Part shown: positions 5,853 to 50,400 of the stretch, piece by piece
Layout: each line of letters opens with the position of its first letter
Numbering within the stretch: the first letter of the stretch is position 1
Virus record (IMG/VR): IMGVR_UViG_3300006204_000008
Coordinates: 14,924-78,923 of that record
Reading direction: 5' to 3' (one strand)
Source: a virus
Taxonomy: Duplodnaviria > Caudoviricetes
Length of the DNA stretch: 64,000 nt
The notes under the pieces: model-generated
What the model saw: only the letters and a program-made list of their open reading frames with translations
Told to the model about the DNA's origin: nothing
The model's database searches: none
Position numbers and translations under genes: made by a program

Positions 5853-5930
5853 GGCCGCTGGCCGGATTTGAACCGGCAACCCTTGAGGGCCATTTCCTCC
5901 CTCCGGCTCTGCCTATTGAGCTACAGCGGC
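5853..5930 (-). tRNA. tRNA-like element with aberrant anticodon arm (pseudo-tRNA)
   Basis: GCCGCTG/CAGCGGC acceptor, GCTC/GAGC D-stem, GCCGG-TTCAAAT-CCGGC T-arm; anticodon arm GAGGG-AGGAAATGG-CCCTC has a 9-nt loop; no encoded CCA. Confidence 0.7.
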
Positions 5931-9996: not shown

Positions 9997-10084
9997 ACGG
10001 GAAACCACTTTCACCCATGAGCGCCGCCCCGGAAGGGGCACCGGGCTTGCACCGGTCACGCCGCAGCGCGGGCCTTGCGGGCGA

Positions 10085-10648
10085 TCAATCCATCTGGCAG
10101 TAGTCCATAGCATCATAGCCCATGGAGCGGAGCGCGGCAGTCATGGCCTCTGCGTTGCGGCTGCGGGCGTTGCCCTGGGCTCGGGTGTCCGGGCCGAAAA
10201 CAAACTGTTTGGAGCCGTAACAATTCCAGACAAAACAGCCGGTCCCGGCTTCCTTCGCGGCTTGCTTCACTTTCTCCGCAGTCCAGCGGGGGAGGGAGAG
10301 GGCGGAGCTGTCAAAGTTACAAGTGCCGCCGTCCTCCGGGTTGGCATCCTCTACAGCGCGGCCAGCGGCCAGGGCCTTCTTGAGATCATCACGGAGCTTG
10401 GCGTAGCGTCCAGTCAGAGCGCCGGGGGCTCTCTTGTCTTTGGGCTTGTCCGGGGGATAGGCGGCGCGGATCACGGCAAAGTGGCTCAGGGCTTCCGCCT
10501 CTGTGGCGGATCTCATGCTGGCGATCTCGACATAACCGCCGGAAGTCATGAGCATTGTTTCATAGCTGCCAGGGGCAAGCTCGGAAGCGTCCAGGATGAC
10601 GCGGCGGCCCTTGAGGGTGTATTCCTCGTGCTTTACAGTGTTAACCAT
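10085..10648 (-). CDS. Hypothetical protein
   Basis: ORF MVNTVKHEEY..., SD AAAGGT. Confidence 0.75.
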   Translation of the reverse strand: MVNTVKHEEYTLKGRRVILDASELAPGSYETMLMTSGGYVEIASMRSATEAEALSHFAVIRAAYPPDKPKDKRAPGALTGRYAKLRDDLKKALAAGRAVEDANPEDGGTCNFDSSALSLPRWTAEKVKQAAKEAGTGCFVWNCYGSKQFVFGPDTRAQGNARSRNAEAMTAALRSMGYDAMDYCQMD

Positions 10649-10665
10649 GATAATACCTTTCTGCT

Positions 10666-10726
10666 CTACCATCATCAGGCCAGGGGGAGCAGTCCCTGAC
10701 GACGGGCCTTGGCCCGTTTCGGCTTA
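10666..10726 (-). ncRNA. Hammerhead ribozyme, type II topology
   Basis: Minus strand GCC-GAAA-CGGGCC AA GGCCCG-UC-GUCAGGG..CCCUGGC-CUGAUGA-U-GGU; GUC cleavage triplet; stem II short. Confidence 0.75.
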
Positions 10727-13135: not shown

Positions 13136-14301
13136 CCATGCCCGCATACGTCAAAATAAGAGCCGCCAAGGACGCCCATCACCCCATGAGTTTTGGGGCC
13201 GCATTCCCTGGCGGTTCTTGCTTTTTATACTTTCTTCAGGGGGCAATTCTTTAGCGCGCTACTGTGTTCCCTCTACCCCTGCGCGCGCACGCGTGCGCGT
13301 ATATATAATATATTTATATAAGCGAGCGCCCCCAGCGTAAGCGTCGGGGCGTGAGATACTTACATGACCATATACTGTGAGCGGCCAGCGCAAGTGAGGC
13401 CGCGGATGGTCTTTACTCGTGAGGCGGACGCGCAAGCGCTCCGCCGGATTGAGTATATCCACCCACAGAGCGCGACGAGCGTCAGCAATGTCGCGCGAGA
13501 GTATCACAGCCGGGGCGGTGCTGGTGTTGGTGATGGGGGGATGGATGAGTGAGGGCGCAAGCCTGCGGACTCTCCCGCCCTACTCCTGCCCTCCCTGCGG
13601 CCTGCTGCGGTTTTGGGGCTCGCTCTGCTCGCCTTGCGTGGTATACGATTAGTATATTATATACAATACTTACAGTTATACGTACATCAGGAAGAAGGTT
13701 GACGTAGAAAAAAACGAAGAGGACCAAAGCCACTGCGAAGATGGCGGAGAAACCAGAGCCCACCAAAGGGGGAGGGAAAGAAGAGATCAGCAGGGAAGAA
13801 ACAGAGCGGGGGCCCAACAGGAGAGAGGGGAAGAAAAAACGGGGAGAAGATGGGGAGATGGGGAGAGGGAAGGGAGTGTGTAGGAGGATGGAAAGAGTCA
13901 CCGCGCGGCTGATGTTCCTGCTCAAAGCCATGAGGGCCCGCGCGATGATCCAAGCGCGAAGTGTGAAAAAGGCACGGATCAGGCGGGAGACGCGCCACCT
14001 TGGCGGTCAAGTGGCAAGTGTTGTGATTCCTGCGAAGAATCACAACACTTGAAACCCATATACAGGCTTGAATAGAAAATAAAGGGTAAAACAGGGAGGC
14101 GGGGGAGTGCTTTTGCCGCAAGCACCCCCCTGGTTTGCAGTTTGGACCCCCTTTTTGGGCACGGTATACCTACTAGCTCTTCTTTCCGCTCCCATGTTCT
14201 CCATACCCCTCTGAACAGCGCACCCATCACCCAAGAACAAACTTAAACATCCAACCGCATGAGAAGCTTGGATAATATATCGAAAAGATAGACATTAGCA
14301 T

Positions 14302-18483: not shown

Positions 18484-19266
18484 ATGGCAAGACAGAAGAA
18501 GACGGATCTGCTTCCCGAAGGGGAGCTTATGGAGGAGACCGGCGCGGCCGGCATGACCCTTGGCGAGAGTTCGGAAGGGGAGCCTCCCACGGAAGAGGCG
18601 GAAACCAAGATGGAGACGATTTCTCTGGAAGACAGCGATCTTGCTGTCGAGATGGAGAAACTGCGCCGGCAGAATGAAACCCTCGTGGAACAGATGGAGA
18701 TCATGAAGGAGCAGCTGCAAAAGCAGAGTGTCCCGACCGTGGTCCAGGTATCCGCCGAAACGGAGCGGGTTCGCTTCCTGTGGCAGGCAGAGGTAGCCAA
18801 CGAAAACATCAAGACCTTTGGGGAAGGCGGGATGTTTGGCCGGATCGTGGGCAAAACGGGAAGCTTCTATGTCCCCAAGAGCGACTTGGCCCGGGTAATG
18901 GATGCGGAAAACCGCCTGTTTTTGGACAAACGCTGGCTGATCGTGGTCAGCGGTTTGGATGAGGAGGAGCGGGAAGCCCTGGGCGTGAATTATCACGACG
19001 GGGAACTGCTTGATCGGAGGGCGTTTGAGAAGATGGTGGAGCTTGGGGACGAGCTGTTGGAGCTGTACCCTGAGCTGTGTGAGGGGCATAAGGTGATGGT
19101 GGCTCAGCGTTACCGGGAAGCCTTTGACCGGGGAAGCCCCCATGTGACCCGGGAGCGTGTGACTGCCCTGCGTGACATGGCCCAAACGGCCCATATCACA
19201 CCCAACCCCTTCACCAGCATCCTGCAGGAGATGAACAAGCGGGAAGCCGGAGAGGGCGAAGGCTGA
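18484..19266 (+). CDS. Hypothetical head-region protein
   Basis: 260 aa, SD AAGGAG, acidic N-terminus. Confidence 0.8.
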   Translation: MARQKKTDLLPEGELMEETGAAGMTLGESSEGEPPTEEAETKMETISLEDSDLAVEMEKLRRQNETLVEQMEIMKEQLQKQSVPTVVQVSAETERVRFLWQAEVANENIKTFGEGGMFGRIVGKTGSFYVPKSDLARVMDAENRLFLDKRWLIVVSGLDEEEREALGVNYHDGELLDRRAFEKMVELGDELLELYPELCEGHKVMVAQRYREAFDRGSPHVTRERVTALRDMAQTAHITPNPFTSILQEMNKREAGEGEG

Positions 19267-19277
19267 GGAAGAGACCT

Positions 19278-19368
19278 ATGGCAAAGTGTATAAATACCAC
19301 TATTTACCAGTGGGGGGGGGCGTTCTGACCTCCTGATTGGCGAAATGCCCAAAGGGGGGTGCGTCTGA
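19278..19368 (+). promoter_or_regulatory. Poly-G leader uORF switch A (G9, predicted OFF)
   Basis: SD GAGGA+ATG 19278; G9 19312-20; stop 19326-28; G8/G11 would read to TGA 19366-68 overlapping ATG 19368. Confidence 0.8.
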
Positions 19369-19877
19369 TGGCATATGTTGCCCCCAACTGGAAGAATGGC
19401 GCGGCCCCCGCGCTGGATGCCGCAGCCTTACAGGCAATCAGCGACGCCATTGTGGAGTTGCAAAACAAGAATACGTCCCAGGATAGCCTGATTGCTTCTT
19501 TGCAGTCAGAAATTTCATCCCTAAAGGATGGAAATATTCAGGTAGCCAGCGGATCATATTCAGGCACAGGAAGATCCGGAAGCTATGAAAACAGCACGAG
19601 AATTAACTTTCCCTTTGTTCCTGGCGTTATCTTCCTCTATTGCCCTAATGATGGCTGCTGCATGACCATCACTTCGAGTTCACAACAGAATACAATGTAT
19701 CTGTTTGGCTCCAGCGGATCTGTGGTTTATGCATTTGATTGGACCCAGATTTCTGTAAGCCCAAAGTATGGTACAGGATCTATTGCTTGGTATGGGAGCT
19801 CGGCTAAGAGACAGGCGAATGAATCAGGAAAGAAGTATTACTACCGAGCGTTTGGTAGGGTAGAAAAGAGTGCTTGA
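19368..19877 (+). CDS. Adhesin/receptor-binding-like paralogue A
   Basis: Shared N-terminus MAYVAPNWKNGAAPALDAAALQAISDAIV; GSYSGTG...INFPFVP...WY...Q.N...YYY.AFG C-domain. Confidence 0.75.
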   Translation: MAYVAPNWKNGAAPALDAAALQAISDAIVELQNKNTSQDSLIASLQSEISSLKDGNIQVASGSYSGTGRSGSYENSTRINFPFVPGVIFLYCPNDGCCMTITSSSQQNTMYLFGSSGSVVYAFDWTQISVSPKYGTGSIAWYGSSAKRQANESGKKYYYRAFGRVEKSA

Positions 19878-25842: not shown

Positions 25843-25933
25843 GTGGCGAAATACACAATTACCAATAAATGGATACGGGGGGGGGCATTCTGACCTCCTG
25901 ACTAGCAGAATGCCCAAAAGGGGGTGCGTCTGA
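25843..25933 (+). promoter_or_regulatory. Poly-G leader uORF switch B (G9, predicted OFF)
   Basis: SD AGGAGG+GTG 25843; G9 25877-85; stop 25891-93; G8/G11 reads to TGA 25931-33 overlapping ATG 25933. Confidence 0.8.
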
Positions 25934-26448
25934 TGGCATATGTTGCCCCCAACTGGAAGAATGGCGCGGCCCCCGCGCTGGATGCCGCTGCGTTGCAAGC
26001 AATCAGTGATGCCATTGTGGAGTTGCAAAACAAGAACACATCCCAGGATTCACTGATATCCTCCCTGCAGTCAGCGGTCAATGGAAAAGCAAGAGTGGCG
26101 TTTGGGACATATAGAGGGACGGGAGCGTTTGGAAGTACACATAGAAACCGTATAACATTGGGGTTTGCACCGTTTCTTTTTATGTGTACGGGTACCTATT
26201 GTTATAGCCCCATGAAATATTTTACTGTCGGATTTGGATGCGCGGCTGGGTATGTGACCCCTTCATTCGTTTGGTTAAGGGGGCCAAACACTATTTTGAC
26301 GAGCGACGTTAATTCTACGAGTCAGCTTGAACACTATAGTATATACCCAACATGGGGGGATACCTTTATGGAGTGGTATAGTGAAAGCAACGCAGAATGC
26401 CAACTAAACGCTTTATATACATACTACAATTATCTTGCTTTAGGGTAA
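25933..26448 (+). CDS. Adhesin/receptor-binding-like paralogue B
   Basis: N-terminus near-identical to A; GTYRGTG...ITLGFAP...WY...CQLN..YTYYNYLALG. Confidence 0.75.
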   Translation: MAYVAPNWKNGAAPALDAAALQAISDAIVELQNKNTSQDSLISSLQSAVNGKARVAFGTYRGTGAFGSTHRNRITLGFAPFLFMCTGTYCYSPMKYFTVGFGCAAGYVTPSFVWLRGPNTILTSDVNSTSQLEHYSIYPTWGDTFMEWYSESNAECQLNALYTYYNYLALG

Positions 26449-27474: not shown

Positions 27475-30400
27475 ATGGCAGAGATCGTCACGTTAAAAGT
27501 TAATGTTGACCGGGGACAGCTGACCGCCCTCCAGGCGGACTTGGCGAAACTACAGTCTAAGACGGTGGACATTAAGGTAAACGCCTCCGGGTTTGCGGCA
27601 TTGGACAAGAACATCGTCAAGAACATCAACAGCGTATCCCGCTTTGTCAATGCCGCCTCCCGACTGGAAAAGACCCAGGCCCAAGTGCGGATTGCCCAGG
27701 AGCGGACGGCGCAGGCAACTCAGCGGAGGATGACGGCGGAGAGCCAGCTTGCCGCACAGCAGGCGCGGCTTGCAACGCAAAACGCCAGGACGGCAACGGA
27801 GGAAGCACGGCTTGCCACCCAGACCCAGAAAACCGCCACGGAGGAAGCCAAGGCAGCGACCCAGGCCCAGAGAGTGGCCCAGGAGCGGGCCAAACTGGCT
27901 ACCCAGACCCAGCGGACCGCGACGGAAGAGGCGCGGCTTGCCACCCAGCAGGAACGCACACGGACCGCCCAGGCCCGGGCGTCGGCGTCCCAGCAGAGGA
28001 TGATCCGCTCTACTAACGAAGCGACCCAGGCCAACAATAACCTCATTACCAGCCTTGCCAGCAGCGCAAAGGGAATGGCACAGTCGATGCTGACGGCGGC
28101 GCTGATTTATAAGCCTGTCCAGTCGTTCAAGGAAGCTCTGGAAACCATGAAGGCTGTGGATGCCGAGCTGGTCAACGTGGGCAAGGTGACCAAGTGGCCG
28201 GAGGAACGGTTGAAGGCCATGGGAGAGCAGGCATACAAGACTGCTTCTGAATATGGCGTGGCGGCGAATGAGTATTTGTCGAGCGTAACGGAGTTTACTC
28301 GGGCAGGCTATCTGGGACAGAGCGAGGCGTTGGCAGAGCTGGCGAACAAGACGCAGATCGTGGGTGACACCACGGCAGATGTGGCCAACCAGTTTTTGCT
28401 GGCGGTGGACAAGGGCTACCAGATGGGCGGTTCTGTTGAGAAGCTGAGCGCGGTGCTGGACGGGGCCAACGAGATTGGCAACAACTTTGCAACTAGCATC
28501 CCGAAAATTGCCGAGGGCCTTGGTAAGGTGGCGCCCATCGGCGCACAGGCCAAGGTGGGCATTGACGAACTGTCTGCCGCCATCGGCACGGTCACAGCCG
28601 TCACGCAGAGAAGCGGTACTGAGGCCGCGACGGCCCTTCGCGCCCTGTTCTTGAACATCATGGGCGACACTAAGACGGAGATTGACGAGGGCGTGACCTG
28701 GACCACAGGTGAAATCGCGGGTTTGCGGGACGTGCTGAATATCTATGCCTCCGACGTAGTGGCGGCGGCGGATGCTACGGGCAGCCTCATCAATCCCATG
28801 GAAGCCATCGGGGCGCTGTCGCAGTCGATGAAGGACGGCGTTCTGACGGAACAGAAGCTGATGGAAATGGTTTCCGACATCGGCGGCAAACTCCGTACCT
28901 CTCAGCTGCTGGCCTTGATCCAGAACTGGGATATGTACGAGGCGATGCTGGATAAGTACGAAAACGCCGCCGGGTCTGCCGACCGGGAAGTGGAACGGGC
29001 CATGGATTCCTGGGGGAGAAAGACCGAGGTTCTGAAGAACACCTGGACACAGTTTGTTTCCCATATCGTAGAGACAGACACCATCAAAGGGACCATTACC
29101 GGGGTCACTGACGTCATTTCCGGGTTGGACACCCAATTTGGCCATGTAGCACTGAGCGTGGGGACATGGACTCTGGGGATTATGGGCGCGGCAAAGGCCG
29201 TGAATGCGCTCGGAACGGCCTTTGCTTCCTCAAAACTCATGTCGGGGATCAACTACCTGAGAAGCATGAATGCCCTGGGCGGCGCACAGGGCGTGATGAA
29301 AGGGCTTGGATTCCTGATAAAAACTAACCCGGTGATTGCCGGGGGTCTTGCCTTTGCGGGCCTGTATACTTTAGTCAAAGAGCTTCGGGAAGTCGCTCCG
29401 ACCGTGGAACACGCCAGAGACGAGATAGAAAAACTGCAAGCGCAGCTAGAAGAGGGTTTTGGTGGTGGCAGTGAGTACGAGGACCTTCTCTCCCGGGCGG
29501 ATAGTCTGACAGCGGCCGAGCAGCAGCGGCTTACCATTTTGAAAGCGCAGAAGCAGGCGTTGGAAGGGCAGATCGAGGACACCAAAGAGTTGGAATTTGC
29601 CCGTTTCCAGAATAACCTTGGCATTGGGAACGAGCGTCAGGAAATGTCCGGGAAAACCATAGACGAAACCCGGCTTGACAAGATGAGAAAGACGCAGGAG
29701 AGCTTGACAGAGGCTTTCCAAGCGGGTGAGATCGGTGCGACGGAGTTCAAGAAGGGTCTGACAGATCTGATTTCGGAGAGTGAGGAGTATTACAACGCCC
29801 TTGTGAAGTATAAGGACGCGGGATACGACCTGACCCAAGCTCAAAAAGCCACGATTGAGCGGTATGAATCTATCGCGCAGCTGCTGGGCACAGCAGAAAA
29901 TGGGTATCTGTCGGCGGCAGTGGCCTTGGAGCGGTTTGACGCCGCAGCGGAGGTAGGGGGGAAGACCCTGCTCAATGGAGATGCTTTGAAAAAGTCCCTG
30001 GAAGAAGCAGGGGCAACGGCGGAGCAGATCGAATCCATCCTGGCGAACATCGGCGAGGATGAGAACACCATCCTGATTGACATTGAAGCTGACCCGAAAG
30101 CCGCCTTGGATGCTTTGAAGGAAGTGGGCATTGCAGCGGAGAACGCCGACGGGACGATTGAGATCGACTATTCCGCGTTCAGCGGACTCATGAGCCAGCT
30201 GGGCTACACAAATGAAGAGGCTTCTTCCCTGACGCAGAATCTGAGAGAGCTGGGAAATGTCACATTCACGAATCTTCCCGGACAGATGGATGCGACCGGA
30301 GCGAAAATCGAAAGCGTTTCAGAGCGGACGCAGAATGCGAAGAGACAGCTGGACGCACTGGGCAGGACGAAGGCCCAGCCGAAGATAGAACTGAAAGATG

Positions 30401-33123
30401 ACGGCGCACAGGCGCGGATCGAAGCCATCAAGAGCAGTCTGGCCGGAATCCCGCGTAGCATCAACGTTGCCATCCGTGTAGCAAATGGGACCGCAGGGGC
30501 TATTACCGGAAGTATGCTCAGCCCATATTTGCCGAAACGAGCAGACGCAGAAGGCACCGATGCCTTCCCCGGCGGTAAAACCCTGGTCAACGAGTTGGGG
30601 CCTGAAATCATCCGGGAAGGAGGCCGGGCCAGGATCGCCGCCGGAGGCAGGCCGACCATCACCACGGTAGCGCGGGGAGCGCAGATTTTTACGGCGGAAG
30701 AGACGAGGGATATTCTCTCCGGGCGCGGGCAGGATATCCCACTCGCGTCTTTTGCCTTTGGTGCGAAGAAATCCGGGTCTATTTCCTCGCTATCCTCTAA
30801 CGGAACAGGTCTTTCGGAATTTGCCCACAGCAGACCGGCCGGAAGCCAGACCAGCAGCGGGAGCGGCAGCCCAAGCAGTGCAGGGAAGAAGAGTGCGTCC
30901 GGTTCTACCGCGAGAAAGTCCAGCTCTGGAAGCGGGAGTTCCGGGAAGAGCGGCGGCAGCAGCGGAGGCGGAAATGATGCACAGCTGGAGGCATTGCAGG
31001 CGGATCTTGAGCTTTTGAAGGCGCAGTATAGCTTTCTGGAAGCCTCCGGGGCCGGAGCCGATGCACTCACCGCCAAGTCCAAAGAAATCCAAACGGCCCT
31101 GCATAACATCAACAACTACCTCCGGGCTACCAACGGGGAGGAAAAGGACATCGTGTCCAATTCCACCGACTGGTGGAAAGAACTTGAAACGATAAAATCC
31201 ACCATCACGGAGGCTTACGAGGCGGAGCGGGATTTGCTGGACACGGAGATCGAGCTTTCCCAGCGGCAGGGCCTGAATGTTGGGACGCAGCTGGAGAAGT
31301 ATCGTCAAATTCAGGATTCCCTACACAAGCAGGCGCAGTATTTAAGGCAGATCGGCGCATCTCAGGCGGAGATCAACAAGCTGTCTTTGGAATGGTGGGA
31401 TGTTCAAGAGGACATCAAAAAGGCTCAGGAGGATCTTTGGGACGAGTTGAGTGATGCTGTTGATTGGGAACTTCAGCGGGCGGATGAAGCGCGGGAAGCT
31501 GAGATTAAGGCCATTGATTACCTCATTGAGCAGAAGGAAGCGGCGCGGGATGCGGCGAAGGAGGAGAAGGAGACCCAGGAAAAACTATTACGCATTGAGG
31601 AGGCACGGGCCGCGCTGGAAAACGCGAAGAATGAGCGAACGGTCCGAATGTTCAACGCCCAGACCGGGCAGTGGGAATGGATTGCAGACCCCAAAACGGT
31701 GAAGAGCGCCCAGGATGAGTTGGATGAGGCGGAGAAGGACTGGAGGGAATACCAGGAAGAGCTCGCATACCAGAAAGAAATCAGGGAGATGGAGCGGCGC
31801 AAGAAGGCCATCAACGATCAATATGATGAGTTGGAAAAGTCCTGGAAGAAGATCACCCAGAGTATGCAGCAGCCAGCCCGGAAAATCAGTGACATTCTTG
31901 ATGACATTGCTAAGAATGGCACGCCGCAGATGAAGGCGCAGATTGGTAATGTAAATAAGCTTCTGGGCGACCTTGGGAACTACATCAAGGGGGTTATCGG
32001 AATCGGTACAGGTGACAGCTACTTCGACGAGTATTGGAGTCAGCCCTTTGACCAGACGAAGGTTGACGAGGTTGTCACCCAAGGCAAGGACTACAGTCAA
32101 GACACAGCGGACTATCACGCGATGATGGAACGGGCCTCGAATGTGGATGACTTTTACTACTTTGCGGCACAGCGGCAAGCCAAAATGGAGGCGTTAGGCA
32201 TCAAGGCAGGGGTGGACAAGGACGCCAACGGGAACGTTTATAAGACCAATGAGCAGATTTGGAAGGAATGGCAGGCAAATCATAAGGGGTGGGAAAATGT
32301 TCCGACGAACATGGGAGCGCCCTACACACCGGTAACCGGCGGTGGGAAGACTTATGCTTCAGTAAACGGCAAGGCCCCGGCTGGGATGAAGGTTGGGGAC
32401 CAAGTAGTTACCCAGGGCGGAACTTATGAAATCACGGGATTCAACCCCGATGGTACTTATCAATCTAAGTATGTGAGTGATACCACTAAGGACACCTATA
32501 AGGGTAGTTACGCTAACAGCTCCGGTTCTTCCTCATCTGGAAGCTCTGGCAGCAAGGGAAGCGGTTCTTCCTCCGGGTCCTCTTCTTCCGGCAACAAGGG
32601 TGGCGGGACATATGCTTCTGTCAACGGTAAAGCCCCCTCCGGCCTGTCAGCAGGGGACAAGGTAGTCACTCAGGGCGGCACATACAAAATCACAGGTGTC
32701 AATAAGGATGGGTCCTACCAGTCTCAAAAGGTGTCAAGTCAGACAAAGAGCGACTATGAGAAAAATGGCGGCACCTACTCCAAGAAGTACGATGAAGGCG
32801 GCATCCTTCGCGGCCTGGGCGGCATCAAGGCTACAGCGGAAAATGAAATGGTCCTGCCCCCGGACATCACTGCCGCCCTGCTCAAACCAAGCGCGGACGC
32901 TGTGTTCCAGCAGAGAATGAAGGAGCTGGGGCTGATTTATGGTACGCCCCAGCGTCTTGGACCTCAGCTGGCGGGCATGGCCAGGACAGGGAACAACTAT
33001 GACCACTCTGGCCCGGAGTATCATATGGGCAATATCACCCTCAGCGAGGCCCAGGCAAAGAGCATGACAGTCTATGATCTGGCGCAGAAGGCGAGGAATC
33101 TGACTCTATTCAATGGAAGATAG
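27475..33123 (+). CDS. Tape measure protein
   Basis: 1882 aa, helical Ala-rich repeats, TP901-type core, hydrophobic segment, Ser/Gly linkers. Confidence 0.92.
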   Translation: MAEIVTLKVNVDRGQLTALQADLAKLQSKTVDIKVNASGFAALDKNIVKNINSVSRFVNAASRLEKTQAQVRIAQERTAQATQRRMTAESQLAAQQARLATQNARTATEEARLATQTQKTATEEAKAATQAQRVAQERAKLATQTQRTATEEARLATQQERTRTAQARASASQQRMIRSTNEATQANNNLITSLASSAKGMAQSMLTAALIYKPVQSFKEALETMKAVDAELVNVGKVTKWPEERLKAMGEQAYKTASEYGVAANEYLSSVTEFTRAGYLGQSEALAELANKTQIVGDTTADVANQFLLAVDKGYQMGGSVEKLSAVLDGANEIGNNFATSIPKIAEGLGKVAPIGAQAKVGIDELSAAIGTVTAVTQRSGTEAATALRALFLNIMGDTKTEIDEGVTWTTGEIAGLRDVLNIYASDVVAAADATGSLINPMEAIGALSQSMKDGVLTEQKLMEMVSDIGGKLRTSQLLALIQNWDMYEAMLDKYENAAGSADREVERAMDSWGRKTEVLKNTWTQFVSHIVETDTIKGTITGVTDVISGLDTQFGHVALSVGTWTLGIMGAAKAVNALGTAFASSKLMSGINYLRSMNALGGAQGVMKGLGFLIKTNPVIAGGLAFAGLYTLVKELREVAPTVEHARDEIEKLQAQLEEGFGGGSEYEDLLSRADSLTAAEQQRLTILKAQKQALEGQIEDTKELEFARFQNNLGIGNERQEMSGKTIDETRLDKMRKTQESLTEAFQAGEIGATEFKKGLTDLISESEEYYNALVKYKDAGYDLTQAQKATIERYESIAQLLGTAENGYLSAAVALERFDAAAEVGGKTLLNGDALKKSLEEAGATAEQIESILANIGEDENTILIDIEADPKAALDALKEVGIAAENADGTIEIDYSAFSGLMSQLGYTNEEASSLTQNLRELGNVTFTNLPGQMDATGAKIESVSERTQNAKRQLDALGRTKAQPKIELKDDGAQARIEAIKSSLAGIPRSINVAIRVANGTAGAITGSMLSPYLPKRADAEGTDAFPGGKTLVNELGPEIIREGGRARIAAGGRPTITTVARGAQIFTAEETRDILSGRGQDIPLASFAFGAKKSGSISSLSSNGTGLSEFAHSRPAGSQTSSGSGSPSSAGKKSASGSTARKSSSGSGSSGKSGGSSGGGNDAQLEALQADLELLKAQYSFLEASGAGADALTAKSKEIQTALHNINNYLRATNGEEKDIVSNSTDWWKELETIKSTITEAYEAERDLLDTEIELSQRQGLNVGTQLEKYRQIQDSLHKQAQYLRQIGASQAEINKLSLEWWDVQEDIKKAQEDLWDELSDAVDWELQRADEAREAEIKAIDYLIEQKEAARDAAKEEKETQEKLLRIEEARAALENAKNERTVRMFNAQTGQWEWIADPKTVKSAQDELDEAEKDWREYQEELAYQKEIREMERRKKAINDQYDELEKSWKKITQSMQQPARKISDILDDIAKNGTPQMKAQIGNVNKLLGDLGNYIKGVIGIGTGDSYFDEYWSQPFDQTKVDEVVTQGKDYSQDTADYHAMMERASNVDDFYYFAAQRQAKMEALGIKAGVDKDANGNVYKTNEQIWKEWQANHKGWENVPTNMGAPYTPVTGGGKTYASVNGKAPAGMKVGDQVVTQGGTYEITGFNPDGTYQSKYVSDTTKDTYKGSYANSSGSSSSGSSGSKGSGSSSGSSSSGNKGGGTYASVNGKAPSGLSAGDKVVTQGGTYKITGVNKDGSYQSQKVSSQTKSDYEKNGGTYSKKYDEGGILRGLGGIKATAENEMVLPPDITAALLKPSADAVFQQRMKELGLIYGTPQRLGPQLAGMARTGNNYDHSGPEYHMGNITLSEAQAKSMTVYDLAQKARNLTLFNGR
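27750..27980 (+). repeat. 11-residue tandem repeats in TMP N-terminus
   Basis: Recurrent TQ(K/R)TATEEARLA units, 33-bp DNA periodicity. Confidence 0.75.
32341..32727 (+). repeat. Duplicated about 43-aa domain in TMP C-terminus
   Basis: TYASVNGKAP.G..GD.VVTQGGTY.ITG.N.DG.YQS at 32341-32469 and 32599-32727 with Ser/Gly linker. Confidence 0.8.
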
Positions 33124-33431: not shown

Positions 33432-33531
33432 ATGACAAATTGCACAATTACCAATAAATGGATGCGGGGGGGGGGGCTCTAGCCTACTAACCGTCAAAAT
33501 GACGAAGGGGGTGCTGGTATGCCTCTGGTGA
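33432..33531 (+). promoter_or_regulatory. Poly-G leader uORF switch D (G11, predicted OFF)
   Basis: SD AGGAG+ATG 33432; G11 33466-76; TAG 33480-82; G10/G13 reads to TGA 33529-31, overlapping the gene starting at 33519. Confidence 0.75.
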
Positions 33532-39468: not shown

Positions 39469-39654
39469 ATGGGGAAAGTGAGAGTAAGTGCGGCGGACCT
39501 GCGGTGCATCAACGACGCCCTGGAATCCGGGTGTGATGTGCGCATCCAGAATGTAAAAGGCGGCTACCGCATCATTGCGGAGCGGCCCAAGGTATTGAAG
39601 CGAGAACCGGACCGGGAAAACAGAACGGAGGAAAATACATGGCAAAGTGTATAA
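39469..39654 (+). CDS. Small hypothetical protein
   Basis: MGKVRVSAADL...; coupled to portal stop. Confidence 0.65.
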   Translation: MGKVRVSAADLRCINDALESGCDVRIQNVKGGYRIIAERPKVLKREPDRENRTEENTWQSV

Positions 39655-39730
39655 ATACCACTATTTACCAGTGGGGGGGGGGCGATCTAGCCTCCTGACT
39701 GGCAGAATGCCCAAAAGGGGGTGCGTCTGA
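39639..39730 (+). promoter_or_regulatory. Poly-G leader uORF switch C (G10, predicted OFF)
   Basis: SD GGAGG+ATG 39639; G10 39673-82; TGA 39696-98; G9 gives TAG; G8/G11 reads to TGA 39728-30 overlapping ATG 39730. Confidence 0.8.
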
Positions 39731-40221
39731 TGGCATACGTTGCCCCCAACTGGAAGAATGGCGCGGCCCCAGCGCTGGACGCTGCCGCCTTGCAGGCAAT
39801 CAGCGATGCCATTGTGGAGAACCAAGGAGATATTGCCTCACTCAAAACAGCAGTGGCAGAGAAAGCAGATGTGGTAATCGGGTCCTATGTTGGCACGGGT
39901 GGCTATGGAAGTTCGCGCCCGTCTTCGCTCACATTCCCTAGTCCAGTCGAGTTTCTTTGGATATATGCTATTCGTTATGGAGATGGCAGCATAGGCTCTA
40001 CGCTTTATCGAGGGATGACTACCCTTCCCACCCTCACATTGTTGATGAATACTTGGCGCACGACACGCGGTTTTGATCTTATTAACCACAGTTTGACTTC
40101 TGCCGCTGCAGCAAGGCGCACCAACTCTGGAAAAACTGTAGAGTGGTACAATAGTAATTCGGATAGTTCACAAGGTAGTATCAGTGGCTATACTTACTAT
40201 TATTTGGCTGTATTGCAATAG
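39730..40221 (+). CDS. Adhesin/receptor-binding-like paralogue C
   Basis: Same N-terminus; GSYVGTGGYG..LTFPSP...WYNS...Q.S..GYTYYYLAVLQ. Confidence 0.75.
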   Translation: MAYVAPNWKNGAAPALDAAALQAISDAIVENQGDIASLKTAVAEKADVVIGSYVGTGGYGSSRPSSLTFPSPVEFLWIYAIRYGDGSIGSTLYRGMTTLPTLTLLMNTWRTTRGFDLINHSLTSAAAARRTNSGKTVEWYNSNSDSSQGSISGYTYYYLAVLQ

Positions 40222-48058: not shown

Positions 48059-48153
48059 ATGACTATGGCGAAATACACAATTACCAGTAAATCCCAACGG
48101 GGGGGGGGTGCCTCCATAACACCCTAGGCACCTTGCACAAGGGGGTGGCGTGA
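48059..48153 (+). promoter_or_regulatory. Poly-G leader uORF switch E (G10, predicted OFF)
   Basis: SD AAGGAG; ATG 48059/48065; G10 48099-108; TAG 48125-27; G9 gives TAA; G8/G11 reads to TGA 48151-53 overlapping ATG 48153. Confidence 0.8.
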
Positions 48154-48839
48154 TGGCTTACGTTGCCCCCAAGTGGAAGAACAGCGGACCGCCCGCCTTG
48201 GACGCTGCCGCGCTGCAAGCGATTTCTGATACATTGGCGAAAGTGCCCATTGAAAATGGTGGGACTGGGGCTACCAGCGCTGCGGCTGCCCTCCATGCAC
48301 TCATCAGTGCAGTCGAAGGAGTGAATGAAACGGGGATCACTTCCAGTTCCCGTATCCCATTTGATGTTTGGCCAGATGGCCCTGCGAAATATATAACAGC
48401 GAATGGACTCGGAAGGTACTTTGCAAGAAATGTTGATGGCCTGATGATGCAGGTTGGTTCCTATGTCGGGACAGGGCTTTATGGAAGTGGTAACCATAAC
48501 ACGCTTACTTTCACCATGTATCCTAAATTTGTTTGGCTGTTTGGGATGTGTAATTCCAGTTATACAAGTGGAATAGGCACCAAACTTAGTCTGATAGGAA
48601 TCAACGACGGGGGAGATAACAACACCATTTATTCGACAGCACCTGGATGGTATGTGTCTGGGTACAAACAAGAACAAGGATTTTGGTATAAATCTTCTTC
48701 TACATATTCATATGGGCGTGAACAAAGTATATCAACCGGAGATGGCAGAGTGAGATCTTTAAGATGGTATAACACACAAAGTGCATCTGCACAGCTTAAT
48801 CAAAGCTCAACGAGGTATATATGGCTTGCTTTGGGCTGA
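48153..48839 (+). CDS. Adhesin/receptor-binding-like paralogue E
   Basis: MAYVAPKWKNSGPPALDAAALQAISD; GSYVGTGLYG..LTFTMYP...WYN..SASAQLNQSSTRYIWLALG. Confidence 0.75.
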   Translation: MAYVAPKWKNSGPPALDAAALQAISDTLAKVPIENGGTGATSAAAALHALISAVEGVNETGITSSSRIPFDVWPDGPAKYITANGLGRYFARNVDGLMMQVGSYVGTGLYGSGNHNTLTFTMYPKFVWLFGMCNSSYTSGIGTKLSLIGINDGGDNNTIYSTAPGWYVSGYKQEQGFWYKSSSTYSYGREQSISTGDGRVRSLRWYNTQSASAQLNQSSTRYIWLALG

Positions 48840-48884: not shown

Positions 48885-49100
48885 ATGAAGAAAACAGAAC
48901 CGATCGGCACCCTGCGCTTCAAAGACGGAACGGACGTTGAAGTGACAGGGGAGAACAACCGCTACTGGCTGTGTCAGTACGGGCAGTTCCGCAAGAACAA
49001 CCCGGCAATCGAAGGCTTCACCCCGCCTTCTAAGAAGCCGAGGCGGAGCGAACCGGACTTTGAAGCGTTAGGGGAGGTGAAGGAAGATGTCAGTCGTTAA
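48885..49100 (+). CDS. Small hypothetical protein
   Basis: SD GAGGGGG; stop overlaps next gene. Confidence 0.7.
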   Translation: MKKTEPIGTLRFKDGTDVEVTGENNRYWLCQYGQFRKNNPAIEGFTPPSKKPRRSEPDFEALGEVKEDVSR

Positions 49101-50400
49101 TGGCGTTTATGAAGCGCCAGACTGGAAGGACGGGCAGCCTCCGGCGATCAGTGCGGAGGAGCTGAGGGCTATAGCTCAAGCTCTTACTGGGCAGGTGGGT
49201 ATTCCTAATCCTGTTTTCTCTGGAAGTATTTCGATGGGGAGATATCCTGGAATTACCGTCGGAGAAAATAGTACTGCACTTGGAAATCAAGTATCTGCAT
49301 CAGGAAAATATTCTCATGCAGAGGGAAAGAATGCTCGTGCGCAAGGCCAATACTCCCACGCAGAGGGAAACTACACTACCGCATCAGGAGAATCATCCCA
49401 TACAGAGGGGGACCGTACCACTGCATCAGGCACAAACTCTCACGCAGAGGGAGACCGAAGCTCAGCGTCAGGAGCCTACAGCCATGCTGAGGGATATGTT
49501 ACAAAATCACAAGCTTTTGCCAGCCATTCAGAGGGAAGTCTAACTATCGCATCGGCTGATTACTCCCATGCTGAAGGGAGAGGCACTACAGCGTCTAACT
49601 ATAGCTCTCATGCGCAGGGAATGTATAATAAACCCATGGAAGGCGGTGGGACTGGTGGCAATCTTGTTGGCGATGCAATGGTTATTGGTAATGGAATGAA
49701 TGAACAAAGCCTTTCCAATGCTTTCCGAATCACTCGATCTGGGGCCGTCTACGGCGTCGGCAGCTTCCACACCAGCGGCGCGGACTATGCCGAATACTTC
49801 GAGTGGGCTGACGGCAACCCCAACGCCGAGGACCGCGTGGGCCGCTTCGTGACGTTGGAAGGGGACAGGCTCAAACTGGCCGGTCCGGGGGACTATCTGC
49901 TGGGCATCGTCTCCGGCAACCCCTGCATCGTCGGCAACGGTGATGAGGACTGGCTTGGCCGCTGGGTCCACGACGAGTTTGATCGTTTTGTGAAGGAGTA
50001 CCTGGAGGAGGATAGGGAACCCCTGGATATCCCCGAGGGCCTGTCCGATGAGGAACGCCTTGCCCTCATCACTGCCCCGGATGTGCGGGAGGAGAACGGA
50101 CAGTATTACCGCATCACCTCCCGGGTGGTGGACTATGAGACGCCTTCCTGGCGGCTGAAAGCGAACCCTGCATATGATCCGTCTCAGCCCTACGTTGAGC
50201 GAAGGGACCGGCAGGAGTGGGACACAGTAGGTATGCTGGGGGTGCTGGCGGTCCGGGATGACGGGACCTGTCAGGTAAACGGCTTCTGTCAGGTGGCAGA
50301 GGGCGGCGTTGCCACGGCGGCGGAAGGATATGTCCCTGGCCTCACGTACCGGGTCATTGACCGGGTGAGTGACAAGGTTGTAAAAGTGGTTTTCCGCTGA
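49087..50400 (+). CDS. Tail fibre/spike with YadA-like SHAEG repeats and Peptidase_G2-type intramolecular chaperone
   Basis: 14-aa SHAEG repeats; ADYAEYFEW.DGNP..EDRVG.FV...EWDTVGMLG.L.VRDDGTC.VNG; N-terminus related to the adhesin family (APDWKDGQPPAISAEEL). Confidence 0.85.
   Translation: MSVVNGVYEAPDWKDGQPPAISAEELRAIAQALTGQVGIPNPVFSGSISMGRYPGITVGENSTALGNQVSASGKYSHAEGKNARAQGQYSHAEGNYTTASGESSHTEGDRTTASGTNSHAEGDRSSASGAYSHAEGYVTKSQAFASHSEGSLTIASADYSHAEGRGTTASNYSSHAQGMYNKPMEGGGTGGNLVGDAMVIGNGMNEQSLSNAFRITRSGAVYGVGSFHTSGADYAEYFEWADGNPNAEDRVGRFVTLEGDRLKLAGPGDYLLGIVSGNPCIVGNGDEDWLGRWVHDEFDRFVKEYLEEDREPLDIPEGLSDEERLALITAPDVREENGQYYRITSRVVDYETPSWRLKANPAYDPSQPYVERRDRQEWDTVGMLGVLAVRDDGTCQVNGFCQVAEGGVATAAEGYVPGLTYRVIDRVSDKVVKVVFR

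What the first reader, a model, noticed from the sequence alone, without database searches (positions are those of the whole stretch)
19328..19360. Conserved hairpin sequesters the adhesin Shine-Dalgarno, giving the switch a mechanism
Seen: after each G-tract an anti-SD segment can pair with the adhesin SD: A ACCTCCT(19328-34)/AGGGGGGT(19353-60); B 25893-99/25919-25; C GCCTCCT(39690-96)/39716-22; weaker equivalents in D and E. The inner stems vary but keep pairing (GGC-GAAAT-GCC in A, GGCA-GAA-TGCC in C, CGTCA-AAA-TGACG in D). Inference: the SD is closed by default, and only a uORF ribosome in the open frame travels through the hairpin and exposes it.
Basis: partly seen in the sequence, partly recalled or inferred. 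Interest (0 to 1): 0.75.

Follow-up and report, generated by a model that had tools for sequence, protein, structure and literature searches.

The report
Ribosome-site lock in phage poly-G switches

Summary
The window is a complete 78.9-kb phage of mouse/human-gut Oscillospiraceae. Five small paralogous tail-tip-like genes (a sixth lies just upstream of the window) each sit behind a 11-codon leader ORF with a G9-G11 tract. One tract frame ends on the gene's ATG; the other two stop 28-42 nt upstream.

Local folding and RNAalifold both return that hairpin for A-C. It is no better than dinucleotide shuffles and has no compensatory changes. It competes with a 10-bp stem that leaves the SD free, and with an SD-AUG hairpin formed with codons 3-6 of the gene.

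Only the downstream hairpin can separate ON from OFF.

SD occlusion as such is supported. RBS opening energy is 10-17 kcal/mol, against a median of 3.6 for 34 other genes and 2-5 for four non-switchable paralogues. It also exceeds a composition- and codon-preserving null across 17 leader types. A related pair shows a G-C to A-U compensatory change in the downstream helix.

Verdict: principle partly supported, stated mechanism not. The scan has already noted the same poly-G leader module on other DNA.

The parts
19278..19328 (+). Leader ORF A as assembled (G9; stop TGA 19326-28), with its own GGAGG-type SD upstream
19312..19320 (+). G9 tract of cassette A. G8 or G11 would run the leader ORF to TGA 19366-68, which overlaps ATG 19368
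19328..19334 (+). It lies between the two OFF-frame stops 19326-28 and 19334-36
19318..19350 (+). Alternative stem P1: last 3 G of the tract plus 7 nt (19318-27) pairing with 19341-50. The anti-SD sits in its loop and the SD is left free
19352..19361 (+). Shine-Dalgarno AAGGGGGGTG of gene A (3' arm of P2 and 5' arm of P3)
19355..19385 (+). Downstream hairpin P3: SD plus spacer (19355-67) pairing with codons 2-6 (19372-85), with the ATG 19368 in the loop; -14.2 kcal/mol
19368..19877 (+). Gene A, 169 aa, with the shared N-terminal about 35 aa and a variable head
25843..25935 (+). Cassette B leader: GTG start 25843, G9 25877-85, anti-SD 25893-99, P1 25883-92 with 25906-15 (perfect 10 bp), SD 25918-26, ATG 25933
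39639..39732 (+). Cassette C leader: ATG 39639, G10 39673-82, anti-SD 39690-96, SD 39715-23, ATG 39730; P3 39717-29 with 39734-47
33432..33531 (+). Cassette D leader: ATG 33432, G11 33466-76, degenerate anti-SD GCCTACT 33482-88, inner stem 33492-96 with 33500-04, SD 33505-13, ATG 33519. The ON-frame stop is 33529-31
48065..48170 (+). Cassette E leader: ATG 48065, G10 48099-108, GCCTCC 48110-15, CACCCT 48120-25, SD 48139-47, ATG 48153. A 13-bp P3 hairpin pairs 48141-53 with 48158-70 (-21.5 kcal/mol)
49087..50400 (+). Non-switchable paralogue (437 aa) with the same N-terminal domain, an ordinary GGAGG SD and no G-tract leader. RBS opening energy is 3.1 kcal/mol; used as an internal control

Best explanation
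Each cassette is a phase-variable translational-coupling unit, and the gene's own ribosome-binding site is kept base-paired.

Shown from sequence:
- A well-initiated 11-codon leader ORF runs into a hypermutable G tract.
- In one of the three frames it ends on or just past the gene's ATG (TGATG in A, B, C and E). In the other two it stops 28-42 nt upstream.

Predicted:
- The SD (AAGGGGGTG, a G run) sits in a C/U-rich, G-poor leader and in front of a C run in codons 5-6.
- It can therefore pair three mutually exclusive ways. P3 is an SD-AUG hairpin with codons 2-6. When the tract end instead pairs in stem P1, the anti-SD is looped out.

Inferred:
- P2 is at most the resting-state lock of an untranslated leader.
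- Ribosomes stopping in either OFF frame sit on the anti-SD and free the SD from P2, but the SD then falls into P3. That keeps SD and AUG closed because those ribosomes never reach it.
- Only the ON-frame ribosome unwinds the SD arm, terminates at the AUG and re-initiates, held by the SD.
- Discrimination therefore rests on stop-start overlap plus the downstream hairpin, not on the hairpin at 19328-60.
For: Three-frame rule: it holds in all five cassettes, in the sixth one upstream, and in about 20 unrelated phage contigs.

Tract length: it differs between otherwise identical leaders from different samples.

RBS opening energy:
- The five genes need 10.4-16.9 kcal/mol. All 34 control genes need 7.9 or less (median 3.6; p=2e-6). 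In the wider context p=0.002.
- Nine switchable leader types give 6.4-16.9, against four non-switchable paralogues at 1.9-5.2 (p=0.0014).
- Across 17 leader types, opening energy exceeds a null with a dinucleotide-shuffled leader and synonymously recoded codons (mean z 1.26, Wilcoxon 5e-4).

SD complementarity in the leader exceeds own-contig background (9 of 17 in the top 10%, Fisher 1e-7).

OFF-state modelling: with an OFF ribosome footprint masked, the SD stays occluded (6-18 kcal/mol in A-E) by the downstream partner.

P3 helix:
- Stability is -14 to -21.5 kcal/mol.
- Codon choice favours it in Z, C, E, F and H (p<=0.045).
- Self arm pairing beats cross-type arm pairing (p=0.026).
- L160 against L221: the SD changes from GGGGG to GGAGG, matched by a synonymous CCC to CCT change (G-C to A-U) in the downstream arm.

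The SD motif is conserved in all three reading frames of the ON-frame leader ORF, so it is an RNA element and not a peptide.
Against: - All structure evidence is thermodynamic prediction.
- For A, B, C and D themselves the combined null gives z of -0.5 to +0.6. Composition alone (G-run SD, C-rich leader) already produces about 9 kcal/mol.
- The cassettes are paralogues, so the control comparisons are not independent.
- In full-length context the G tract competes for the C-rich partners and lowers occlusion in B and C to 6-7 kcal/mol.
- In an SD-unbiased sample of 15 other poly-G leader units, occlusion was not general (mean z 0.45, p=0.26). Two types have an open RBS.
- GCC and CCC are the commonest Ala and Pro codons here, so the C run need not be selected.
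- All six cassettes are in OFF frames in the assembly, so the ON assignment itself is inferred.
Confidence: 0.5

Rival explanations
1. One reading: the anti-SD/SD hairpin (19328-34 with 19353-60 and its equivalents) is the lock, and only the ON-frame leader ribosome passes through and opens it.
For: It is the local MFE in A-C and the RNAalifold consensus of eight related leaders, with 93% of cells paired. CCTCC between the two OFF stops is kept in A, B, C, Z and the J-type relative. The leader's SD complementarity is in the top 5-6% of genome windows.
Against: - The OFF stops at -42 and -34 flank the anti-SD, so OFF ribosomes cover it too.
- There are no compensatory changes, and it is not above shuffles.
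- D has a mismatched CCTAC with a background-level duplex. E and Z use other partners.
- P1 is more stable than P2 in Z, B and L187.
- The upstream pyrimidine box is unchanged between L160 and L221 although the SD changed.
Confidence: 0.15
2. There is no selected structure. Gating works purely by distance-dependent termination-reinitiation, and predicted SD pairing is a by-product of a G-run SD next to a pyrimidine-rich leader that has to carry two out-of-frame stops.
For: Shuffled leaders give nearly the same occlusion (for A-D). There is no covariation in P1 or P2. Other poly-G leader units with ordinary SDs show an open RBS. A review states that coupling falls steeply with stop-start distance even without structure (PMC12548453).
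Against: With an accessible strong SD the gene would be translated independently of the leader frame, which defeats the switch. The family-level excess over the null argues against it. So do the contrast with the non-switchable paralogues and the compensatory change in L160/L221.
Confidence: 0.25
3. Stem P1 (tract end with the CAGAAYGCCC arm) is the functional element. It presents the anti-SD in its loop for a loop-SD pseudoknot or kissing contact, or serves another role such as pausing or processing.
For: P1 is a perfect 10 bp in Z and B, with G-C, A-U and G-U at one pair, and it is the MFE for B in long context. An unrelated leader type (L205/L207) also places CCTCTT in the loop of a 6-bp stem just before its SD (read by eye).
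Against: P1 has mismatches in A, C, L184 and L147 and no pair with double changes relative to the commonest pair. A full pseudoknot has 0 nt and 3-4 nt linkers across 7- and 10-bp helices, which is sterically implausible (inference from general pseudoknot geometry; no tool here folds pseudoknots).
Confidence: 0.07
4. The hairpin 7 nt after the slippery G run stimulates -1 ribosomal frameshifting, giving leaky ON expression from one OFF genotype.
For: The G run is a perfect slippery sequence, and the 7-nt spacer to P2 in A, B, C and Z matches the canonical 5-9 nt.
Against: The spacing and the hairpin are not kept in E, F, H, I or the unrelated leader types. A frameshift stimulator has no need to use the SD as its 3' arm. 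-1 shifting would reach the ON frame only from G10 (C, E), not from G9 (A, B, Z).
Confidence: 0.03

Closest known systems
RNA-unfolding translational coupling with an RBS-sequestering structure (MS2 coat-lysis, E. coli rpmI-rplT; reviewed in PMC12548453)
   Same: The downstream gene's SD and start are predicted to be base-paired and to be opened by a ribosome translating the upstream ORF. A stop-start overlap and an SD before the restart codon are present.
   Different: The upstream ORF is a tiny leader whose reach is set by a hypermutable G tract. Several mutually exclusive partners compete for the SD. Nothing has been tested experimentally.
Streptococcus gallolyticus Pil1 switch: repeat-number variation in a leader peptide gene plus ribosome-induced destabilisation of a stem-loop (Danne et al. 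2014, PMC3894217)
   Same: A simple-sequence repeat changes how far leader-peptide ribosomes travel, and the longer leader disrupts a downstream stem-loop to turn the gene on.
   Different: In Pil1 the stem-loop is a transcription terminator. Here no terminator is present and the target is the RBS, so control is at translation. The repeat here is a G homopolymer, the host is a phage, and there are five or six copies per genome.
Hypermutable polyG tracts in receptor-binding protein genes of Campylobacter Fletchervirus phages (Sorensen et al. 2021, cited in PMC12823448)
   Same: Phage-encoded G tracts create heritable ON/OFF diversity in host-recognition proteins.
   Different: There the tract lies inside the protein-coding gene. 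Here it lies in a separate leader ORF and acts through coupling and RBS occlusion.
ermC-type leader-peptide translational attenuation
   Same: A leader ORF ribosome determines whether an SD-sequestering hairpin is open.
   Different: ermC depends on drug-induced ribosome stalling, not on frame. No arrest motif was found or tested here.

Membership tests
RNA-unfolding translational coupling (RBS-sequestering hairpin) | RBS of the downstream gene is base-paired when the upstream ORF is not translated | tested here: met
   Prediction only: opening energy 10-17 kcal/mol against a median of 3.6 in 34 control genes, and 1.9-5.2 in non-switchable paralogues.
RNA-unfolding translational coupling (RBS-sequestering hairpin) | The helix is supported by compensatory evolution | tested here: not met
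The downstream SD-codon helix has one compensatory G-C to A-U change, but in a related pair, L160/L221.
RNA-unfolding translational coupling (RBS-sequestering hairpin) | Only translation that reaches the structure opens it, so ON and OFF are discriminated | tested here: not met
For the downstream hairpin P3 the criterion is met in silico.
RNA-unfolding translational coupling (RBS-sequestering hairpin) | Disrupting the structure raises uncoupled expression | not testable with these tools
   Needs reporter assays.
Termination-reinitiation coupling | Stop of the upstream ORF overlaps or abuts the start of the downstream ORF, with an SD before the restart codon | tested here: met
   In the ON frame the configuration is TGATG in A, B, C and E, and the stop is +10 in D. 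The SD lies 5-6 nt before the ATG.
Pil1-type leader-peptide repeat attenuation (Danne 2014) | Simple-sequence repeat inside a leader peptide ORF that changes leader length | tested here: met
   G9-G11 lies in an 11-codon leader ORF. Tract length differs between samples.
Pil1-type leader-peptide repeat attenuation (Danne 2014) | The target stem-loop is an intrinsic transcription terminator | tested here: not met
   There is no plus-strand terminator-like site in 19150-19500 and no U run after either stem.
Campylobacter-phage polyG contingency loci | G tract lies inside the receptor-binding protein ORF | tested here: not met
   The tract lies in a separate upstream ORF that ends before or at the gene's ATG. 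Two relatives with the leader deleted (L010, L011) do fuse it in frame.
-1 frameshift stimulatory hairpin | Slippery run, 5-9 nt spacer, stable structure, conserved across relatives | tested here: inconclusive
   The spacer is 7 nt in A, B, C and Z. The arrangement is absent in E, F, H, I and in unrelated leader types.
Any Rfam family | Covariance-model match | tested here: not met
   No family reaches threshold in the leader. The best E-values are 2.5-6.3.

The most novel reading that the evidence does not exclude
The leader is a three-way RNA toggle built around a deliberately promiscuous G-run SD. Tract length sets where leader ribosomes stop. That in turn selects among the tract-end stem, the anti-SD hairpin and the SD-AUG hairpin, giving graded rather than binary output for each of six tail-tip genes. 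The AAGGGGGTG leader would then be a portable regulatory cassette shared by many unrelated gut phages.
Probability: 0.2. Interest if true: 0.7.

Novelty: new variant of a known kind. Interest (0 to 1): 0.5.

Why it matters
If the occluded SD is real, these cassettes show how a phage turns a slippage-prone homopolymer in a tiny leader ORF into a clean translational ON/OFF decision for each of several alternative host-recognition proteins, without putting the repeat inside the protein.

The same leader design (short ORF, G tract, two early stops, AAGGGGGTG, overlapping stop-start) turned up in about 20 otherwise unrelated phage contigs. Understanding which RNA pairing does the gating would therefore bear on host-range bet-hedging in gut phages generally. 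It would also provide a compact natural part for synthetic stochastic switches.

The present work changes what should be mutated first: codons 3-6 and the spacer, not only the anti-SD.

Tried and rejected
- Pattern scan for the conserved leader-ORF codons in viral contigs hit mostly chance matches.
- A scan for more A/B/C-type leaders (tract, then GCCCAAA, then G run) found only L147.
- The genome-contig scan found one MAG (Oscillospiraceae MGBC111873), with contigs broken at the leaders.
- P(SD paired) as a metric saturates (about 0.8 in shuffles) and was replaced by opening energy.
- The peptide-level explanation for CCTCC (Ser-Leu-Leu in the ON frame) was considered. It was dropped because the pyrimidine box and the SD occur in all three frames across leader types.
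- The C run in codons 5-6 as evidence of selection was rejected, because GCC and CCC are the commonest codons.
- An SD-unbiased sample of poly-G leaders gave no general occlusion. Start-codon calls there are heuristic.
- The AlphaFold model of protein A was too poor (pLDDT 57) to search folds. Pfam gave nothing for the five proteins, and PHROGs gave only weak tail-fibre or other hits.
- Literature searches found no description of a poly-G leader-ORF coupling switch in phages.

Full report
CONTEXT. The window is 64 kb of a 78.9-kb IMG/VR virus record rated complete. It has a tape-measure gene (27475-33123, PF10145). Relatives carry SPbeta-like structural genes (YomU tube, YomN, YonD). The only genome hit is a mouse-gut Oscillospiraceae MAG. 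The 'adhesins' are five 163-228-aa proteins with a shared N-terminal stretch of about 35 aa and divergent heads. A sixth cassette lies 1.6 kb before the window. A 437-aa paralogue at 49087-50400 has the same N-terminus and no G-tract leader. They are best read as alternative tail-tip or fibre proteins; PHROGs gives only a weak tail-fibre hit, and the AlphaFold model is poor.

THE SWITCH. Each cassette has a GGAGG-type SD and then an 11-codon leader ORF running into G9-G11. After the tract there are three outcomes. Two frames stop 28-42 nt before the gene's ATG. One frame runs to a stop that overlaps it (TGATG in A, B, C and E; 10 nt inside in D). All six cassettes are in an early-stop frame in the assembly.

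The same rule holds in relatives and in about 20 unrelated phage contigs found with a pattern that fixed only the tract, the SD and an ATG. Otherwise identical leaders from different samples differ in tract length: G9/G10, G9/G10/G10 and G11/G12/G12. This supports hypermutability.

THE OBSERVATION. Folding from the tract end to ATG+12 gives the proposed hairpin as MFE in A, B and C. RNAalifold on eight A/B/C-type leaders (this phage plus L147, L179, L184, L187) gives it as consensus.

The support stops there.
- Z-scores against dinucleotide shuffles are -1.5 to +0.1.
- SD opening energy is no higher than with shuffled leaders for A-E (z -0.3 to +0.8).
- 93% of cells pair, but no pair shows a double change, and shuffles reach the same values.
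- Against same-strand genome windows, the leader's SD complementarity is in the top 4.5-6.5% for A-C, about 10% for E, and at the median for D.
- D's anti-SD is mismatched, and its inner stem is missing from its nearest homologue, type F.

COMPETING FOLDS. Following a lead from another first-reader note, I found stem P1. The last three G of the tract plus seven bases pair with the CAGAAYGCCC arm.
- It is a perfect 10 bp in the upstream cassette Z and in B, with G-C, A-U and G-U variants at one position.
- Like P2, it has no statistically supported covariation.

A third fold, P3, pairs the SD and spacer with codons 2-6 of the gene (GTT GCC CCC region) and encloses the ATG.
- Its stability is -14.2 (A), -14.3 (B), -16.1 (C), -20.4 (D) and -21.5 (E) kcal/mol.
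- In E it is the MFE in long context.

WHY THE STATED MECHANISM FAILS. In A, B and C the two OFF stops are the triplets immediately before and after CCTCC. A ribosome with either stop in its A site covers roughly 15 nt on each side; this comes from general knowledge of ribosome footprints and of the helicase position cited in PMC12548453. The anti-SD is therefore inside the ribosome, and P2 is open in the OFF frames as well.

That review also notes that upstream ribosomes tens of nucleotides away can unfold an RBS structure without blocking initiation (rpmI-rplT). P2 alone would therefore make the OFF frames leaky.

When I masked the footprint of an OFF ribosome, the SD stayed occluded (6-18 kcal/mol in A-E), because it switches to P3. 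Only the ON-frame ribosome invades P3 and ends on the ATG.

IS OCCLUSION REAL? Several controls say the RBS is unusually closed.
- Against 34 other genes of this phage with strong SDs: 10.4-16.9 kcal/mol versus a median of 3.6 and a maximum of 7.9 (p=2e-6). In the wider context p=0.002.
- Against the four non-switchable paralogues that share the N-terminal coding region: 1.9-5.2, versus 6.4-16.9 for nine switchable types (p=0.0014).
- Across 17 leader types, SD complementarity in the leader exceeds own-contig background (Fisher 1e-7).
- Across the same 17 types, total opening energy exceeds a null that shuffles the leader and recodes the first 13 codons synonymously (mean z 1.26, Wilcoxon 5e-4).

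The partner differs by type. Leaders with a strong adjacent upstream anti-SD (L154, L157, L166, L169) have little downstream pairing. Z, E, F, H, L160 and L167 rely on downstream codons beyond synonymous expectation.

The clearest evolutionary signal is in L160 against L221. The leaders are nearly identical, the SD changes from GGGGG to GGAGG, and the paired proline codon changes from CCC to CCT. Two further changes in the same arm add pairs, and the encoded residues are unchanged. Self arm pairings are also slightly better than cross-type pairings (p=0.026).

CAVEATS.
- For A-D themselves the combined null is not exceeded. A G-run SD in a C-rich, G-poor leader is occluded almost whatever the order.
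- The cassettes are paralogues, so they are not independent observations.
- The G tract competes for the C-rich partners in full-length RNA.
- An SD-unbiased sample of 15 other poly-G leader units shows no general occlusion, and two types have an open RBS. Occlusion is therefore a trait of the AAGGGGGTG leader family, not of every such switch.
- GCC CCC is ordinary codon usage.
- No terminator or Rfam family explains the leader.

COMPARISON AND NOVELTY. RBS-sequestering structures opened by upstream translation, and termination-reinitiation at overlapping stop-start codons, are textbook (PMC12548453). A repeat in a leader peptide gene that decides whether ribosomes disrupt a downstream stem-loop is known from S. 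gallolyticus Pil1, but there the stem-loop is a terminator (PMC3894217). Phage poly-G contingency loci are known inside RBP genes of Campylobacter phages (cited in PMC12823448), and short repeats are known in T-even phages. I found no description of the leader-ORF form. This finding is therefore a new variant of a known kind. Its specific mechanistic claim needs to be redirected from the upstream hairpin to redundant occlusion, with the downstream SD-AUG hairpin as the likely discriminator.

Noticed in passing
window 10008-10085 (-), 10660-10724 (-), 5853-5930 (-): Rfam gathering-level hits: twister-sister ribozyme (65.7 bits), type II hammerhead (45.6 bits) and a tRNA. The two ribozymes flank one small gene.
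   Followed up: no
L173:112-205 (genome positions about 13261-13354, 1.6 kb before the window): Sixth cassette Z with the same leader design (G9). It has a perfect 10-bp tract-end stem and the SD variant GAGGGGGTG.
   Followed up: yes
L010:571-1131 and L011:547-1125: In two related contigs the whole leader between tract and gene is deleted, so the leader ORF is fused in frame to the tail-tip gene and the G tract lies inside the coding sequence. This could be real variation or mis-assembly.
   Followed up: partly
L160 and L221 (IMG/VR 3300045988_074214 and _110574): Near-identical leaders in which the SD changed from GGGGG to GGAGG and the downstream paired codons changed synonymously to keep and extend the helix.
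   Followed up: yes
L176/L177/L188; L178/L183; L184/L185/L186: Identical leaders from different samples differ only in tract length by one G.
   Followed up: partly
window 19278-19311, 25843-25876, 33432-33465, 39639-39672, 48065-48098 and relatives: The leader peptide before the tract is conserved (M-x-K/N-C/Y-T-I-T-N/S-K-W/S-x-R, or MAKCINTTIYQW), with a core that is identical at nucleotide level. It is A/T-rich. The function of the peptide or RNA is unknown.
   Followed up: no
L152, L156, L158, L162, L168: Another poly-G leader type in which the ATG after AAGGGGGTG is followed at once by a stop. The real gene start lies about 63 nt further on, none of the three frames stops early, and L156 has a G20 tract.
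   Followed up: no
L181:9776-10358: A close relative carries a PhdYeFM/ParE toxin-antitoxin pair after the tube gene, at the slot where this phage has cassette B.
   Followed up: no
L133 and L136: An F-type leader whose tract has decayed to TTGGGGGG (G6) and sits in an early-stop frame. It is possibly a locked-OFF copy.
   Followed up: no
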